Shown one piece after another: positions 44,277 through 48,643 of a stretch of 64,000 bases of DNA. This DNA is from Candidatus Woesearchaeota archaeon (lineage in GTDB: Archaea; Nanobdellota; Nanobdellia; UBA10117). Position 1 is the first letter of the stretch. Each line of letters begins with the position of its first letter. Under the pieces are notes generated by a model. That model was given only the letters and a program-made list of their open reading frames with translations. It was not told the DNA's origin and searched no databases. The stretch is from assembly GCA_964354105.1 (NCBI GenBank), contig CAYGXM010000002.1, positions 14,398 through 78,397 of the forward strand, written 5' to 3'. The translations under genes and the position numbers were made by a program.

Positions 44277-45041
44277 TTAGCAGCGACATTTGGCTTTCTT
44301 TGGCGTCTTGGTGTGCACAAAAGCATTCTGATGCAAATCGATTTCTACAATGCCGTTAGGAATTTCATCATCTACATCTATGGGGGCAACAATTTTTCTA
44401 ACTAAATTGGCCATTCCGGCTGCAACTAGAAGACTTGTTTCAGCTACTGCAGGATTCGCCTGATTGCCGCAAGGCGCTCTTTGCTTTCTCCTTTCGGCTA
44501 GCTCATAAATTCCTTTTGTGCAGTCCAAGCAACATGTTTGCTTAGGAACATAAGCAGAATACCAACCGTGCAAGCCTTGAGTGCCACCAGAAACTAGCGC
44601 ATATTTGTTTTTAACAGCGAACTCGTTTAGGTATGCTCTTGCAGGATTATTATCCACGCAGCCAACAAATACTGGCTTGTTACCTAAATACATTCTTGTA
44701 AAAACATCGAGGGGCATCTTTTCCTGGCTTAACCATTCTTCGTGCGCCTTTATGTCGATGTCTGAATTTCTTTCGCGTAATTTGTTCGCTAGCGTCTGGG
44801 CTTTGTTTTTGCCTACATCATCTTCAGTAAACATACACTGTCTGGTAACATTGTGCAATTCTATTTTATCAGGGTCAATCAAATGCAGCGTGCCAACACC
44901 TTCGATTGCAAGTATTGTTGCAACACCATTTCCTGTTGCACCACAGCCTATGATTGCAACTTCGGCTCCTGTCAGTTTATCTAAATTAAGTCCTGCTGCA
45001 TTTTGTCGGCTATAACGATCTAGAACCATTTTTTGAACCAA
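44277..45041 (-). CDS. E1-like activating enzyme (ThiF/MoeB/UbaA family), 254 aa
   Basis: LDRYSRQ, IIGCGATGNGVA (nucleotide-binding GxGxxG), NVTRQ, and C-terminal Zn-type CCLDC...PCGN. No rhodanese or UFD domain. Confidence 0.75.
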   Translation of the reverse strand: MVQKMVLDRYSRQNAAGLNLDKLTGAEVAIIGCGATGNGVATILAIEGVGTLHLIDPDKIELHNVTRQCMFTEDDVGKNKAQTLANKLRERNSDIDIKAHEEWLSQEKMPLDVFTRMYLGNKPVFVGCVDNNPARAYLNEFAVKNKYALVSGGTQGLHGWYSAYVPKQTCCLDCTKGIYELAERRKQRAPCGNQANPAVAETSLLVAAGMANLVRKIVAPIDVDDEIPNGIVEIDLHQNAFVHTKTPKKAKCRC

Positions 45042-45835
45042 GCTTTTAATCTTGACACAGTTGCAAATCTGTTTTTAGTAAGAAAGTGCCACACAGATGG
45101 CTCCTCTGCAAGTTTCTCATTTAATGCCTCTTCTACAGCAAGATTTGGAGCAAGTTCAACATACCATTCTTGCAATTTCACTTTATCCATAATCTCTTTT
45201 CTGATTTCGTCAGTTGAAAATTTGAGCGGCCCAGGTATAATTTTTGGCGTGACGTTTAAATGAATAACATCTGGTAAAATTTCATCTACAGATAAATAAG
45301 TTTGATATGCGCCATCAGTTGTTAATATCATCGAATAAAGCCCGAGGGCCTCTCTTTCTATAACGTTTTCAGAACTACATTCGCATTTCCAGCTTGCCTT
45401 AACAGGAACCTGTATATCATTAAACCGGATTCCAATATCCCTATAATCTGTTATAGAAGGCGAGCAGCCTATCTCGCCTTTGCCGGGATGAAAGTGAAAC
45501 CAACCCACCGGATTAAGGCCTTCAGCTTTTGCCTTTTCTATTGTTGCTGCAATGTCATCTGCACTGTAGCTGGCACCTACCCAATTAGATTTACAGGGCA
45601 CAAGAGCACAGTTTTTTATTTCATACGAGTCTCCTGCAGGACTTAGCAATATGCCACCCAGCTCTGTGAAAACTTTTTCCCTAGTTTTTAATTGTGAATA
45701 CTGCTGCCGCATTGCAGAATCTATCAAGGGGCCATGGGCAAGAATTTTTTCCAAGCAGCCAGATGTTATTACAAATTCCTTATCCAGCTTAAGGTCCTTA
45801 AACCCTGCAACTTCTGTTGAATAATAGGTTTCCAT
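45020..45835 (-). CDS. JAMM/MPN+ metallopeptidase (Rpn11/Mov34-like), 271 aa
   Basis: ELGGILLS (Glu motif), GWFHFHPG...SITD (H-x-H-x10-S-x2-D). Its start overlaps the E1 gene by 22 nt. Confidence 0.6.
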   Translation of the reverse strand: METYYSTEVAGFKDLKLDKEFVITSGCLEKILAHGPLIDSAMRQQYSQLKTREKVFTELGGILLSPAGDSYEIKNCALVPCKSNWVGASYSADDIAATIEKAKAEGLNPVGWFHFHPGKGEIGCSPSITDYRDIGIRFNDIQVPVKASWKCECSSENVIEREALGLYSMILTTDGAYQTYLSVDEILPDVIHLNVTPKIIPGPLKFSTDEIRKEIMDKVKLQEWYVELAPNLAVEEALNEKLAEEPSVWHFLTKNRFATVSRLKAWFKKWF

Positions 45836-45837
45836 AA

Positions 45838-46629
45838 TTAGTAATTTTTTACGATGTGCGTATTAACTACTCCCCGTCTTTCTGTAGAACCATGACGCGC
45901 GTGCACTATCGACCTTGCGTAATCCATCGCCAGAACTATTTTCTTTTCTAAAGGCATATTTTCCATGCCAAGTACATAGGCCTCATATCTTGGCGCGCAA
46001 ATATCATCTTCACCTTCTCCAACGTCTGGCTTTAGCGAATTATGAGTGAGCAAAAATGGGTTTCCAAGAGTAATTGTCCTATCTAACATCAACTCCAGGC
46101 CTATTTTAAAAGGCGCTTCATATCTGGCCTTTTTTGCTTTCCTTTGACTATATTTATAACAAGGAAAGGTTTTAGTTGCTGCAATAATTTCAAACTTATC
46201 TTCATCTTTCCAACTAGTAATATTAACAACAGGCTCTATTATTATTGCAGGATCTAATTTTTGTATTTTAATAGAAAGGCTATATAATCTTCTAAAATTG
46301 TTGCGGAATTTTCGTCCGATATCCGCATAATACTTATCGATTTTGTCACAGAAATCGCCTTCTCTCCACTCTTCGTATTTTTCAAATTCGCTAACTTTTT
46401 CTTTTAGCGAATCGCGCTCTTGCCTTAAATCTTTGATTTGCCTCTCAAGAGTCGCCTGGCCTGCCAAATCCAAAAAAATATCTGCTCCCTTGCCAATTTT
46501 ATAACTATCACTTTTGTTCAAATCAGGACTTACAGGCATTCTATAAACGCTGCCATCCGGCAACACAACAAGGCACTCTTTCTCTTTTAACAGCTGATTA
46601 AGATTCTTTTTTAGTTCTTCTGAGGTCAT
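45838..46629 (-). CDS. hypothetical protein with E2-like (UBC-like) C-terminal motif, 263 aa
   Basis: N-terminal coiled-coil, then beta-rich region and PFLLTHNSLKPDVGEGEDDICAPRY. This resembles the UBC HPN...Cys active-site region, with loose spacing. Inference only. Confidence 0.35.
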   Translation of the reverse strand: MTSEELKKNLNQLLKEKECLVVLPDGSVYRMPVSPDLNKSDSYKIGKGADIFLDLAGQATLERQIKDLRQERDSLKEKVSEFEKYEEWREGDFCDKIDKYYADIGRKFRNNFRRLYSLSIKIQKLDPAIIIEPVVNITSWKDEDKFEIIAATKTFPCYKYSQRKAKKARYEAPFKIGLELMLDRTITLGNPFLLTHNSLKPDVGEGEDDICAPRYEAYVLGMENMPLEKKIVLAMDYARSIVHARHGSTERRGVVNTHIVKNY

Positions 46630-46663
46630 AAAAAAGAAAAAAAGAAAAGAGATAAAAAGCTAC

Positions 46664-47035
46664 CTACGCGCTGTAGAACCCTTCTGAAGCAATGTAGCCG
46701 TTTTCACCAGCAGCGTTTACTAAGTAATGTACATTGTTTTCTACTACGTGGTTTTTAATTTGGGTTGTTGTCTTAACGACTGCATTTGTTGCAGCATTCT
46801 TTACTTGGTAACCTTCGTCAACCATTCTCTTAAAAGCCGCGCCACCTTTTATTCTGTGGCCTGTTGCATGCTCTGCGCCCATACTTACAATTTCTTCTAT
46901 TGTGCTGTCTTTTGGCGCATCGAATTGAACAAGTGGCTTTTGCGCAACTGTATCTAAGGTTACTCTTATTTTTTGTTCTTGCGTCTGTGTGTTTTTAATT
47001 TCACTCATGTATATCACCAACAAAAGCTCGTACAT
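46664..47035 (-). CDS. small protein with internal Gly-Gly (candidate Ubl precursor), 123 aa (or 114 aa from the second Met)
   Basis: KIRVTLDTVAQKPLVQFDAPKDSTIEEIVSM...HRIKGG followed by about 58 more residues. It is the first gene of the E1/JAMM cassette and is followed by a T-rich tract before the next gene. Confidence 0.3.
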   Translation of the reverse strand: MYELLLVIYMSEIKNTQTQEQKIRVTLDTVAQKPLVQFDAPKDSTIEEIVSMGAEHATGHRIKGGAAFKRMVDEGYQVKNAATNAVVKTTTQIKNHVVENNVHYLVNAAGENGYIASEGFYSA

Positions 47036-47099
47036 TAGTTTTTTAAGGCTTGTCGGAAAAATAAGAAAGACATTTAAAATGATTCTATTTTAGACGTAA

Positions 47100-47894
47100 T
47101 TAATCGTAAAACACAACTGTGGCTATTGTACAGCCATAATCTTCGCTTATTTCCCTTATTGTTGCAACTTTTACTTCAAGGCCATTATCTATATATTTTA
47201 CAAGCTCTTTATCGTACAGCTTAGGCAATTTTTTAATATCTTTTGCGAAACCTTCCAGCATTACTCTACGCTGTTTAGGTAAATCTTTCACCTCTTTAGT
47301 GAATTCTGTAAGCTTTATTGTTAATTTTTCTCTATCTGCTTCTGTTGTAAGCAATTCCAACAGATTCTTTTCGCGTGTGTGGTTAATTTCAGATTCGAAT
47401 TTATCTACTAAATTACGCAATTCTTTTTCTTCCCATTCTTTTTCATGAGGAATATAACCTTCTTTTGTTTTTATTCGCTCGTTTCTCGCTTCTGCCATCT
47501 CTGCAGCTTTGTGGCAAAGATATTTCTGCAAAAATGGCTTGTCAACATAATCGTGGCCTTCTGCAACAATATAATGTTCGCTTAGGCTCGCGAGAACAAT
47601 ACCTGCGCTAATAGTTTGGCCTTCATGACCGCTCATACGAGCTAAAACGCAATGCGTTATTTTGCCTATCGGCAAACTTACAGGGTCTGTACGCTGGCAG
47701 CCTGGCGGAATAATAGAGCTAACAGTTACAACATTCTGGTTTGCGATACTTCCCTTAATCCATTCTTTAGTGTCCTTGATGTCCTTCTCTATGCCTGCAT
47801 TCATCAAAGCTTTGTCAAAAGCGTTAATCTCAGAGGTGTCGCTAACGCCTTTGCCAGTTACAACAAAATACTTCGTTGGTAGTGTGTCCGTCAT
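47100..47894 (-). CDS. pyruvoyl-dependent arginine decarboxylase (PdaD)-like protein with about 90-aa coiled-coil insertion
   Basis: N-terminus matches PdaD (FDKALMNAGI, NVVTVSSIIPP with the Ser-Ser self-cleavage site, GQTISAGI) and the C-terminus matches the PdaD end (DYGCTIATVVFYD). The middle aa ~130-225 is an E/K-rich coiled coil. Confidence 0.55.
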   Translation of the reverse strand: MTDTLPTKYFVVTGKGVSDTSEINAFDKALMNAGIEKDIKDTKEWIKGSIANQNVVTVSSIIPPGCQRTDPVSLPIGKITHCVLARMSGHEGQTISAGIVLASLSEHYIVAEGHDYVDKPFLQKYLCHKAAEMAEARNERIKTKEGYIPHEKEWEEKELRNLVDKFESEINHTREKNLLELLTTEADREKLTIKLTEFTKEVKDLPKQRRVMLEGFAKDIKKLPKLYDKELVKYIDNGLEVKVATIREISEDYGCTIATVVFYD

Positions 47895-47986: not shown

Positions 47987-48643
47987 TTAGCCCTTAACAT
48001 GTGCGCGTACTTCGGCATCAACGCGTTTTATTGTTAGTTTGCAAGACTCGCAAAAATCTGAGCTCAACTCGTCTAATAAACTTTTATTTGGGTTTGGTGT
48101 TTCCATCCAATGTGCATTCATCAGGCATCGTTTGTCGCCAATATAATTATCGCAGTCGAGGATTACGCTATGCCCCAATTCGTGGCACGCCAACTTGACG
48201 TTGCAATTATCAGGCCTGTTGCTCCCGCCTACCACCATGGTGCGCTCTTTCCCCCGATATGAACTTGCATATAGAAATTCCCCTCCAAATTCTCCAACTT
48301 TTTTAGGTGGTCCAATATAAATGAATGGCGAGTGTATTAATATGATCAAGCCAGTATTTTTTTCCGGGATAAATTTCTGTGCAATAGGCCACAAATTGTA
48401 ATAGGTGATGTTTTTAATTACCCATGCATCAACTCGCATGGGTTTACTGCCGTCGTAATTGCTAAACCATAAACGTTCTTCATGTTCCTGCGGTGGTTTC
48501 CAAATAGTATTGTACTTTAAAGCGTACCTTTTAGGTATTGATATGTCCAAGCTGGCTGGATACGTCTTCTGCATACCTTCTACTAAATGCTCTATTGTTT
48601 CTGCGCTTGTGTTCTGTTCGGTTAATAACTTTAATTTCATCAT
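47987..48643 (-). CDS. archaemetzincin-like zinc metallopeptidase
   Basis: CHELGHSVILDCDNYIGDKRCLMN ... DFCESCKL fits the AMZ pattern HExxH...C...CxM...CxxC. Confidence 0.45.
   Translation of the reverse strand: MMKLKLLTEQNTSAETIEHLVEGMQKTYPASLDISIPKRYALKYNTIWKPPQEHEERLWFSNYDGSKPMRVDAWVIKNITYYNLWPIAQKFIPEKNTGLIILIHSPFIYIGPPKKVGEFGGEFLYASSYRGKERTMVVGGSNRPDNCNVKLACHELGHSVILDCDNYIGDKRCLMNAHWMETPNPNKSLLDELSSDFCESCKLTIKRVDAEVRAHVKG

What the first reader, a model, noticed from the sequence alone, without database searches (positions are those of the whole stretch)
44277..47035. Four-gene E1 / JAMM / E2-like / small GG-protein cassette with BilABCD-like gene order
On the minus strand the order is small protein with internal GG (47035-46664), protein with an H-x-N...Cys E2-like motif (46629-45838), JAMM/MPN+ peptidase (45835-45020), and minimal ThiF/MoeB-type E1 (45041-44277). 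The genes are tightly packed, with 22-nt and 3-nt junctions. This is the same order as bacterial Bil (Ubl-E2-DUB-E1) ubiquitin-like conjugation operons, which are implicated in antiviral defence. It is also reminiscent of archaeal SAMP/UbaA/JAMM modules. An E1 with a CxxC...C zinc site but no rhodanese domain, next to a JAMM protease, strongly indicates protein-modifier (or sulfur-carrier) chemistry. A candidate E2 would make it a full Ub-like cascade in a reduced archaeal genome.
Basis: partly seen in the sequence, partly recalled or inferred. Interest (0 to 1): 0.8.

Follow-up and report, generated by a model that had tools for sequence, protein, structure and literature searches.

The report
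Ubiquitin-like conjugation cassette in DPANN archaeon
A tiny symbiotic-type archaeon (Woesearchaeota) carries a tightly packed, rarely seen four-gene operon that looks like a stripped-down ubiquitin system (tag protein, E2-like carrier, JAMM protease, minimal E1 activator); two of its four proteins are recognisable only by predicted 3D fold, not by sequence.

Summary
The four minus-strand genes exist as described and form a conserved operon.

- **E1 (44277-45029):** a solid ThiF-family enzyme (Pfam 4e-43) with an intact adenylation site, a Zn site and an invariant loop cysteine.
- **Protease (271 aa):** it carries a complete, invariant JAMM motif (E58, H114xH116, S127xxD130).

The "H-x-N" motif is not conserved, and the internal GG is not the reactive end.

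The cassette is an accessory insertion between TyrRS and arginine decarboxylase. It is present in a few Woesearchaeal lineages and absent from closer relatives and from 185,579 reference genomes. It is not in a defence island and is not an orthologue of Bil, SAMP or Caldiarchaeum systems.

Best reading: a new minimal Ubl-E2-DUB-E1 conjugation variant. Its biological role is unknown.

The parts
46664..47008 (-). Ubl precursor gene, 114 aa from ATG 47008 (the mechanical ORF extends to ATG 47035, 123 aa). It has a single beta-grasp domain with an N-terminal disordered ~12 residues and a C-terminal tail.
46697..46975 (-). Beta-grasp core, residues 21-113 in 123-aa numbering. It ends in the invariant ...HY(L/K)V(N/S)AAGENG. 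The Gly113 codon (46697-46699) is the proposed mature C-terminus.
   Evidence: A108-G113 are invariant across 5 clusters. The model's last strand is 101-108, and the chain is disordered from 112 onward.
46667..46696 (-). C-terminal tail after Gly113 (YIASEGFYSA here). It is 4-14 residues long and varies in sequence between lineages. It is the proposed propeptide removed by the JAMM protease.
   Evidence: Alignments. pLDDT is below 50. Removal by the protease is an inference.
47013..47018 (-). GGTGAT Shine-Dalgarno-like element upstream of the Ubl start. An A/T-rich TATA-like stretch (TTAAAAAA, 47039-47046) lies about 20 nt further upstream.
   Evidence: Read directly from the sequence in the window, L001 and L006. 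Promoter function is inferred only.
46630..46663 (-). T-rich spacer between the Ubl and E2-like genes (GTAGCTTTTTATCTCTTTTCTTTTTTTCTTTTTT). It is a possible archaeal oligo-T attenuator that would give excess Ubl transcript.
   Evidence: The same pyrimidine-rich spacer is present in L001, L003, L011 and L006. Its function is inferred.
45838..46629 (-). E2-like gene (263 aa). It comprises a small N-terminal beta domain (1-47), a coiled coil (58-110) and a C-terminal UBC/UEV/RWD-like domain (112-247).
45889..46296 (-). UBC-like domain. Its order is helix 112-125, four strands (130-135, 147-155, 174-182, 186-194), a loop carrying invariant Cys211 (codon 45997-45999), a short helix 215-220 and a long helix 227-247. 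A second invariant Cys157 (FPCY, codon 46159-46161) lies just after strand 2.
45020..45835 (-). JAMM/MPN+ metalloprotease gene (271 aa). The catalytic domain spans roughly residues 20-140, followed by a ~130-aa family-specific C-terminal extension.
   Evidence: Pfam Prok-JAB gives E 0.007, below its cut-off. The family profile aligns GWFHFHPG..C.LSGTD to the CSN5 JAMM motif. JGI names an orthologue 'proteasome lid subunit RPN8/RPN11'.
45446..45496 (-). JAMM motif H114-F-H116-x10-S127-x2-D130. The upstream catalytic Glu58 has its codon at 45662-45664.
   Evidence: These residues are invariant in all five lineages. Coordinates were checked.
44277..45029 (-). Minimal E1 (250 aa from ATG 45029; the ORF extends to TTG 45041). 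It is a single ThiF/MoeB-type adenylation domain with no rhodanese domain, no inactive adenylation domain and no inserted Cys domain.
   Evidence: Pfam ThiF scores 4.2e-43 over residues 19-253. All NCBIfam equivalog scores are far below their cut-offs. Against PDB the profile scores MccB 107 bits, Uba1 active adenylation domain 98, ThiF 74 and MoeB 66. The gene called in public data starts at this ATG.
44469..44531 (-). E1 zinc-site C171xxC174 (44520-44531) and the invariant crossover-loop Cys191 in RAPC (44469-44471), the candidate thioester cysteine. The second zinc pair C252xC254 is at the extreme C-terminus (44280-44288).
   Evidence: These residues are invariant. Coordinates were checked. 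Equivalence to ThiF C184 / UbaA C188 comes from established knowledge of the family and was not tested here.

Best explanation
This is a self-contained, minimal ubiquitin-like protein-conjugation operon (Ubl, E2-like, JAMM protease, E1) carried as an accessory module by some Woesearchaeal (DPANN) archaea.

Proposed mechanism:
1. The JAMM protease trims the variable tail of the Ubl precursor after the invariant Gly of ...AAGENG (inferred).
2. The compact E1, presumably a homodimer, adenylates that Gly. The adenylation site is intact (shown by sequence); the activity is inferred.
3. The E1 takes the Ubl onto its crossover-loop Cys (RAPC) (inferred).
4. The Ubl is passed to Cys211 of the E2-like protein. 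The fold and the Cys position rest on a moderate-confidence model; the transfer is inferred.
5. The E2-like protein's extra N-terminal domain and coiled coil may dimerise it or select targets (speculative).
6. The Ubl ends up on lysines of target proteins, and the JAMM enzyme can also reverse this (inferred).

The biological purpose is unknown. An antiviral or conflict role, as in bacterial Bil systems, is plausible from the patchy distribution and the fast evolution of the Ubl and the E2-like protein. It is not demonstrated.
For: - **Operon integrity.** The same four genes, in the same order and with tight junctions, occur in five diverged lineages. This holds even where the flanking genes differ: L006-L010 have Rnl1 ligase/acyltransferase and an ABC transporter as flanks, versus TyrRS/PvlArgDC in the window.
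- **Selection.** All four genes are under purifying selection.
- **E1.** ThiF 4e-43 with the GxGxxG, RxxRQ, DxD..N..RQ and DN..R motifs, the Zn cysteines and the loop Cys, the latter two invariant.
- **JAMM.** The catalytic residues are invariant and align to CSN5.
- **No other gene in the module.** No biosynthetic or sulfur-transfer gene travels with the module.
Against: - The E2 assignment rests on an AF2 model built from only 5 sequences (mean pLDDT 65; the loop 204-211 that contains Cys211 is below 50).
- No sequence or profile similarity to any E2 was found: Pfam at E up to 10, a PDB profile search, and hhalign against UbcH5/Ubc13/Ubc9.
- No HPN-like motif is conserved.
- A second invariant Cys (C157) leaves the catalytic residue ambiguous.
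- Archaeal sampylation works without any E2.
- JAMM-processed sulfur carriers exist: QbsE/QbsD and CysO/Mec+ (from established knowledge).
- No E3 and no target are identifiable.
- Nothing was tested biochemically.
Confidence: 0.55

Rival explanations
1. E2-independent, sampylation-like modifier system. E1, Ubl and JAMM work as in haloarchaeal SAMP/UbaA/HvJAMM1, where the E1 alone drives conjugation. The 263-aa protein would be a non-catalytic UEV/RWD-like adaptor or scaffold (coiled coil plus RWD, as in kinetochore or ESCRT proteins) that binds the Ubl or its targets.
For: The best structural hits are non-catalytic members of the superfold: Tsg101 and Vps23 UEV, and the Ctf19/Mcm21/Spc25 RWD domains that also follow coiled coils. 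No HPN motif is conserved. The E1 is of the compact MoeB/UbaA size. Archaeal sampylation needs no E2 (established knowledge).
Against: Cys211 is invariant and lies exactly where E2s carry their catalytic Cys, and the surrounding CAP(R/N)(Y/F) segment and following helices are the most conserved part of the protein. UEV and RWD domains typically lack that Cys. NCBIfam UbaA (67.7 bits against a cut-off of 450) and desampylase (15.5 against 130) memberships fail. The Ubl has a tail, unlike SAMPs, which end in GG.
Confidence: 0.2
2. Sulfur-carrier system of the ThiS/MoaD/CysO/QbsE type. JAMM trims the carrier as QbsD does, or releases a product as Mec+ does. E1 adenylates the carrier and it is converted to a thiocarboxylate. 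The 263-aa protein would be an unrelated or accessory factor.
Against: No sulfur-acceptor or biosynthetic enzyme (CysM, ThiG, MoaE, NcsA) travels with the module in any context. No rhodanese is fused to the E1, and none was seen next to the cassette in the window or L001. The C-terminus is ...ENG, not GG. The fourth conserved gene has a UBC-superfold with an invariant Cys. The module is dispensable in close relatives, which is unusual for cofactor or tRNA-thiolation genes. Against solved structures, the E1 profile scores higher on the Uba1/Uba6 adenylation domains than on ThiF/MoeB.
Confidence: 0.12
3. The four genes are merely neighbours without a shared function.
For: The two orphan proteins have no annotation, and the surrounding genes are housekeeping.
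Against: The four genes stay together with overlapping or abutting reading frames in two different genomic contexts. They are gained or lost as a block relative to L015/L017.
Confidence: 0.03

Closest known systems
Bacterial BilABCD (Bil / 'ISG15-like', types I and II; former 6C/CEHH operons)
   Different: The E1 here is a 250-aa single ThiF domain (presumably a homodimer) with a loop Cys. BilD instead has IAD+AAD with an inserted CYS domain. The E2-like protein has no CEHH motif and carries an extra N-terminal domain plus coiled coil. The JAB has a ~130-aa C-terminal extension. No sequence-level homology to Bil proteins was detectable. The host is archaeal, and the module is not in a defence island.
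Archaeal SAMP / UbaA / HvJAMM1 (sampylation)
   Same: The host is archaeal, the E1 is a compact MoeB-type enzyme, the modifier is a beta-grasp and a JAMM protease is present.
   Different: SAMPs end in GG without a tail, and sampylation has no E2-like component. The E1 and JAMM here fail the NCBIfam UbaA and desampylase cut-offs by a wide margin. The genes here form a single operon.
Eukaryote-like archaeal ubiquitin operons (Caldiarchaeum subterraneum, Asgard archaea)
   Same: It is an archaeal operon combining a Ubl, E1, E2 and an Rpn11-like JAMM, with JAMM-mediated precursor processing proposed or shown.
   Different: Those systems have canonical ubiquitin, UQ_con E2 and a RING E3 that Pfam recognises, and a larger E1. 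Here no Pfam ubiquitin, UQ_con or RING hit was found, and no E3 is present.
Bub (bacterial ubiquitination-like) and type II CBASS Cap2/Cap3
   Different: Bub works through oxyester intermediates, with a peptidase-E1 fusion that lacks a catalytic Cys (PMC11601596). Cap2 is an E2-E1 fusion that conjugates a cGAS-like enzyme. Here the proteins are separate, candidate Cys residues are conserved in both E1 and the E2-like protein, and no CD-NTase is present.
JAMM-processed sulfur carriers (QbsCDE, CysO/MoeZ/Mec+)
   Same: These combine E1, a beta-grasp carrier and a JAMM protease, and QbsE has a C-terminal extension that is trimmed.
   Different: Those operons include rhodanese-fused E1s and the biosynthetic enzymes that use the thiocarboxylate. 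None is present here, and a UBC-superfold protein is present instead.

Membership tests
ThiF/MoeB/E1 superfamily (PF00899) | Rossmann-type adenylation domain scoring above the Pfam gathering cut-off, with GxGxxG, an Arg finger and the catalytic Asp | tested here: met
   PF00899 scores 147.6 bits against a cut-off of 28.1 over residues 19-253. The motifs are read directly in the alignments.
JAMM/MPN+ metalloproteases | E ... HxH ... S xx D zinc-binding and catalytic motif | tested here: met
   E58, H114, H116, S127 and D130 are invariant. The family profile aligns to the CSN5 motif. The Pfam Prok-JAB score (16.6 bits) is below its cut-off of 25, so membership rests on the motif and a weak profile hit.
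Beta-grasp / ubiquitin-like fold | beta-beta-alpha-beta-beta(-310)-beta grasp fold with a flexible C-terminal tail ending in Gly | tested here: met
UBC/E2 superfold (UBC, UEV, RWD) | N-terminal helix, four-stranded antiparallel sheet, extended loop, then a short helix and a long helix | tested here: inconclusive
Catalytic E2 enzymes | Active-site Cys in the loop after strand 4, usually with an upstream HPN motif | tested here: inconclusive
Invariant Cys211 is at the topologically equivalent place. No sequence similarity to any E2 was found. Thioester formation is not testable here.
BilABCD (types I/II) | Gene order Ubl-E2-DUB-E1 | tested here: met
   The Bil order is as stated in PMC10557695.
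BilABCD (types I/II) | Multidomain E1 (inactive plus active adenylation domains, with an inserted mobile CYS domain) | tested here: not met
   The E1 is 250 aa and one ThiF domain covers residues 19-253. The candidate Cys is in the short crossover loop. BilD is not among the best 60 PDB matches.
BilABCD (types I/II) | E2 homologous to BilB; CEHH motif in type II | tested here: not met
   There are no PADLOC, Pfam or PDB sequence hits. The positions after Cys211 are not conserved as E/H/H.
BilABCD (types I/II) | Location in defence islands and anti-phage activity | tested here: not met
   The neighbours are TyrRS, PvlArgDC, Lhr helicase, RluB-like synthase, DinB and ribosomal proteins. There are no PADLOC hits in the flanks tested and no copies on viral contigs. 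Anti-phage activity is not testable here.
Haloarchaeal SAMP/UbaA/HvJAMM1 | UbaA and desampylase equivalog scores; a modifier ending in GG | tested here: not met
   NF047750 scores 67.7 bits against a cut-off of 450. NF041370 scores 15.5 bits against 130. The modifier ends in ...ENG plus a tail.
Eukaryote-like archaeal Ub system (Caldiarchaeum/Asgard type) | Canonical ubiquitin (PF00240), UQ_con E2 (PF00179) and a RING E3 | tested here: not met
   No such Pfam hits were found, even at E up to 10 for the E2-like domain. No fifth gene is conserved with the cassette.

The most novel reading that the evidence does not exclude
This would be an independently assembled, lineage-specific archaeal counterpart of bacterial Bil-type antiviral ubiquitination. 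It would be a complete Ubl-E2-DUB-E1 cascade running on a MoeB-sized homodimeric E1, in genome-reduced DPANN archaea. The Ubl and the coiled-coil E2 would diversify rapidly because they engage viral (or host-cell) targets. That would show that a thioester relay to an E2 does not require the multidomain E1 architecture. It would also show that DPANN archaea use protein tagging in conflicts.
Probability: 0.25. Interest if true: 0.85.

Novelty: new variant of a known kind. Interest (0 to 1): 0.62.

Why it matters
Complete Ubl-E2-DUB-E1 operons are known from bacteria (Bil, Bub, CBASS) and from a few archaea with eukaryote-like parts. This cassette would extend that set in several ways.

- **Smallest version yet.** It would place a four-protein version, with the smallest E1 type, in DPANN archaea, organisms with little spare coding capacity.
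- **Hidden from sequence annotation.** Its Ubl and E2-like proteins are invisible to sequence-based annotation. This suggests such systems are under-counted.
- **Mechanistic test.** If the E2-like Cys is catalytic, the module offers a minimal model for how E1-to-E2 transfer can work without a dedicated Cys domain. That bears on how ubiquitin-type cascades evolved from MoeB/ThiF sulfur-carrier enzymes.
- **Possible conflict role.** Its patchy presence and the fast evolution of the Ubl and E2-like proteins hint at such a role, which could be tested.

Tried and rejected
- **Sequence annotation of the 263-aa and small proteins.** Pfam, NCBIfam, PADLOC and PHROGs gave only noise such as coiled-coil hits.
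- **PDB sequence and profile searches for the same two proteins.** Nothing relevant was found.
Probability 0.07, so there is no sequence-level link.
- **Deep homology searches.** The word-indexed search of 5.8e9 clusters and a full HMMER pass over 1.84e9 representatives for the E2-like profile returned only orthologues. No bridge to any known family was found.
- **Reference genomes.** A pattern scan of the GTDB species representatives for the E2-like protein found none.
- **Viral contigs.** The JAB, E2-like and E1 queries found none.
- **Metagenome contig scan.** It re-found only L007.
- **Mobile-element signatures.** Flanking repeats and intrinsic terminator or promoter consensus scans around the insertion found nothing above chance.
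- **afdb50 fold search.** This library was unavailable.
- **Ideas rejected.** The internal GG as the reactive end was rejected because it lies inside the fold. The H-x-N as an E2 signature was rejected because it is not conserved. The reading that the cassette is core housekeeping because of its neighbours was rejected, because closer relatives (L015, TyrRS 85% identical; L017) have TyrRS directly followed by PvlArgDC.
Full report
**1. Observation**

The junctions are tight:
- A 34-nt T-rich spacer follows the small gene.
- A 2-nt gap separates the 263-aa and 271-aa genes.
- The 271-aa gene and E1 overlap by 10 nt if E1 starts at ATG 45029, which is the start used in public gene calls. The overlap is 22 nt with the TTG at 45041.

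These are real genes and a real unit. The same four genes in the same order occur in contigs from more than ten independent metagenomes, falling into at least four further diverged lineages: L001/L002, L003/L004, L011-L013 and L006-L010. Amino-acid identity to the window is 65-74% for E1, 45-55% for the protease, 37-46% for the 263-aa protein and 40-60% for the small protein. Where dS is not saturated, dN/dS is 0.05-0.55.

**2. The four proteins**

*E1.*
- Pfam ThiF scores 4.2e-43 over residues 19-253.
- The adenylation motifs are present: RYSRQ, IGCGATGNG, DPDKIELHNVTRQ, GKNKA and VDNNPAR.
- The zinc cysteines (CLDC plus the C-terminal KCRC) and a crossover-loop cysteine (RAPC) are invariant.
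- It has no rhodanese domain, no second (inactive) adenylation domain and no inserted Cys domain.
- It fails every NCBIfam equivalog cut-off: ThiF 108 bits against 275, UbaA 68 against 450.
- Its C-terminal half matches only MoeB/ThiF-type small E1 models.
- Against solved structures, the family profile scores MccB 107 bits, the yeast and human Uba1 active adenylation domain 98, UBA6 87, ThiF 74 and MoeB 66. BilD, Cap2 and BubC are not among the best 60.

*JAMM protease.*
- Pfam Prok-JAB is only E = 0.007, below its cut-off.
- E58, H114, H116, S127 and D130 are invariant in all lineages.
- The family profile aligns GWFHFHPG(x3)C.LSGTD to the CSN5 JAMM motif.
- About 130 residues C-terminal to the catalytic domain are family-specific.
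- The family is tiny, with three 90% clusters in 5.8 billion.

*Small protein.*
- No sequence annotation was found. One orthologue gives a weak Ub-RnfH hint (E 0.015).
- AlphaFold2 on a 5-sequence alignment gives a confident core (pLDDT about 90 for residues 21-110) with the order beta-beta-alpha-alpha-beta-beta-3(10)-beta and a disordered end from residue 112.
- The residues ...AAGENG (to Gly113) are invariant in all five clusters. What follows is a tail of 4 to 14 residues that differs between lineages. This is the pattern of a precursor trimmed to a C-terminal glycine.
- The true start is probably ATG 47008 (114 aa). A GGTGAT Shine-Dalgarno lies 3-4 nt before the corresponding ATG in the window, L001 and L006.

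*263-aa protein.*
- It is an orphan. The word-indexed search found only two other clusters. A full HMMER pass of its profile over 1.84 billion representatives found only its own family plus one coiled-coil artefact.
- The AF2 model is of moderate quality (mean pLDDT 65, pTM 0.52), although the helices and strands of the C-terminal domain reach 70-94.
- Its architecture is a small beta domain (1-47), a coiled coil (58-110), then helix 112-125, strands 130-135, 147-155, 174-182 and 186-194, a loop, a short helix 215-220 and a long helix 227-247. That is the order of elements of the UBC fold.
- Foldseek finds nothing significant (best E 0.14). The same fold classes recur among its top hits: Mcm21, Spc25, GCN2 RWD, Tsg101, Ube2w, Pex4p and Atg3.
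- Cys211 (I/L-C-A-P) is invariant. It sits in the loop between strand 4 and the short helix, the topological position of the E2 catalytic cysteine. The segment from Cys211 through the long helix is the most conserved part of the protein among close relatives.
- A second invariant cysteine (C157, FPCY) exists, so the catalytic residue is not settled.
- No sequence or profile link to any E2 was obtained.
- I therefore regard 'UBC-superfold domain' as likely and 'catalytic E2' as probable but unproven.

**3. Organism and genomic setting**

- The adjacent TyrRS finds its best relatives (75-87% identity) in Woesearchaeota/Nanoarchaeia MAGs, followed by many other DPANN genomes.
- The surroundings are housekeeping genes: TyrRS, an RluB-like pseudouridine synthase, DinB, Lhr helicase, pyruvoyl arginine decarboxylase, GluRS/GlnRS-type synthetase and ribosomal proteins.
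- The cassette is nevertheless not core. L015 has TyrRS 85% identical to the window, closer than the cassette-bearing L001 at 80%. In L015 and L017, TyrRS is followed directly by PvlArgDC and Lhr.
- A pattern scan of 185,579 species-representative genomes found no relative of the 263-aa protein.
- In L006-L010 the same four genes lie in a different context: Rnl1-type ligase and an acyltransferase upstream, and an ABC transporter or other genes downstream.
- It is thus a rare, block-wise gained or lost accessory module.
- There are no flanking repeats, no integrase and no copies on viral contigs.

**4. Two further features**

First, the T-rich spacer after the Ubl gene is conserved in all lineages. 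Oligo-T tracts terminate archaeal transcription (established knowledge). The Ubl may therefore be made in excess over the enzymes; this is an inference.

Second, the Ubl and the E2-like protein evolve faster than the two enzymes. Among the closely related L001/L003/L011:
- E1 and JAMM are 90-98% identical, with dN/dS about 0.11-0.19.
- The E2-like protein is 67-74% identical and the Ubl 64-84%, with dN/dS 0.2-0.55.
- The variable positions lie in the E2-like coiled-coil end, helix 1 and sheet, and in the first strands and helix of the Ubl.

This asymmetry fits diversification of the recognition parts. It could also reflect relaxed constraint.

**5. Mechanism proposed**

The JAMM enzyme trims the precursor after Gly113. 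The E1 dimer adenylates the Gly and forms a thioester on the RAPC cysteine. The Ubl then moves to Cys211 of the E2-like protein and from there to target lysines. JAMM can also deconjugate.

Shown here are the presence and integrity of the catalytic motifs of E1 and JAMM, the beta-grasp fold (predicted), the conserved Gly-plus-tail, and operon integrity. Inferred are every chemical step, the identity of the catalytic cysteines, and any target.

Rivals:
- An E2-independent, sampylation-like system with a non-catalytic UEV/RWD adaptor (confidence about 0.2).
- A JAMM-processed sulfur carrier such as QbsCDE or CysO/Mec+ (about 0.12). A rhodanese gene lies about 2 kb away in L007/L009, but no acceptor enzyme ever accompanies the module.
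- Chance neighbours (about 0.03).

**6. Comparison with known systems**

- **Bil.** Functionally and in gene order, the cassette most resembles BilABCD, whose BilC trims BilA at a C-terminal Gly (PMC10557695). It is not a Bil family member. The E1 architecture differs (single ThiF domain versus IAD+AAD+CYS), there is no CEHH motif, there is no detectable sequence homology, and there is no defence-island context.
- **SAMP/UbaA/HvJAMM1.** It fails this membership too (NCBIfam cut-offs, tail instead of terminal GG, extra E2-like gene).
- **Caldiarchaeum/Asgard eukaryote-like system.** It fails here as well (no Pfam ubiquitin, UQ_con or RING).
- **Bub.** Bub uses oxyester chemistry and a peptidase-E1 fusion (PMC11601596).
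- **Literature.** Searches found no description of a DPANN or Woesearchaeal system of this kind.

**7. Verdict**

The best description is a new, minimal archaeal variant of the prokaryotic Ubl-E2-DUB-E1 conjugation operons. Its Ubl and E2-like components can only be recognised structurally.

The main weaknesses are the shallow alignments behind the models, the weak fold-search scores for the E2-like domain and the complete absence of functional data. Interest is moderate to high (0.62). It would rise substantially if Cys211-dependent conjugation, or an antiviral role, were demonstrated.

Noticed in passing
window 47100-47894 (-): The pyruvoyl-dependent arginine decarboxylase next to the cassette is 264 aa. 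Relatives (L001, L015, L017) have 180-184 aa. It carries an ~80-aa insertion predicted to be helical and charged. It scores only 97 bits in two stretches, against 217 bits for the L015 version. Relative to TyrRS it lies in the opposite orientation to L001 and L015.
   Followed up: partly
window 47987-48643 (-): A 218-aa protein has an archaemetzincin-like zinc-protease signature (HELGH...C...CLM...CESC; NCBIfam archmetzin E 0.011). It has no relative in any of the 93 fetched loci. The interval between PvlArgDC and Lhr holds different small genes in each lineage: 163 aa in L001, 188+163 aa in L003/L011, a GNAT in L017 and nothing in L015. It therefore appears to be a variable spot.
   Followed up: partly
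window 46630-46663; L001 9967-10000; L003 7532-7565; L011 8355-8388; L006 8337-8381: A pyrimidine/T-rich spacer with several T5-T8 runs between the Ubl and E2-like genes is conserved in all lineages. It is a possible archaeal oligo-T attenuator. The E2-like gene has no obvious Shine-Dalgarno.
   Followed up: partly
L001, L003, L011 cassettes (versus the window): Evolutionary rates differ within the operon. E1 and JAMM are 90-98% identical among these close relatives. The E2-like protein is 67-74% identical and the Ubl 64-84%, with higher dN/dS (0.2-0.55 versus about 0.11-0.19).
   Followed up: yes
L007 11222-11593 and L009 5398-5727: A stand-alone rhodanese-domain gene (Pfam 3.5e-20) lies about 2 kb downstream of the cassette, next to PvlArgDC, in the most divergent lineage. 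This is relevant to the sulfur-carrier rival. No rhodanese was seen next to the cassette in the window or in L001.
   Followed up: partly
window 1-64000: The Rfam gathering-threshold scan of the whole 64-kb window found no RNA family at all, so there is no tRNA, rRNA or other known RNA gene in 64 kb.
   Followed up: no
window 44277-45029 (E1): Against solved structures, the E1 family profile scores higher on MccB (107 bits) and on the active adenylation domains of eukaryotic Uba1/Uba6/Uba7 (87-98 bits) than on E. coli ThiF (74) or MoeB (66). No phylogeny was made.
   Followed up: no
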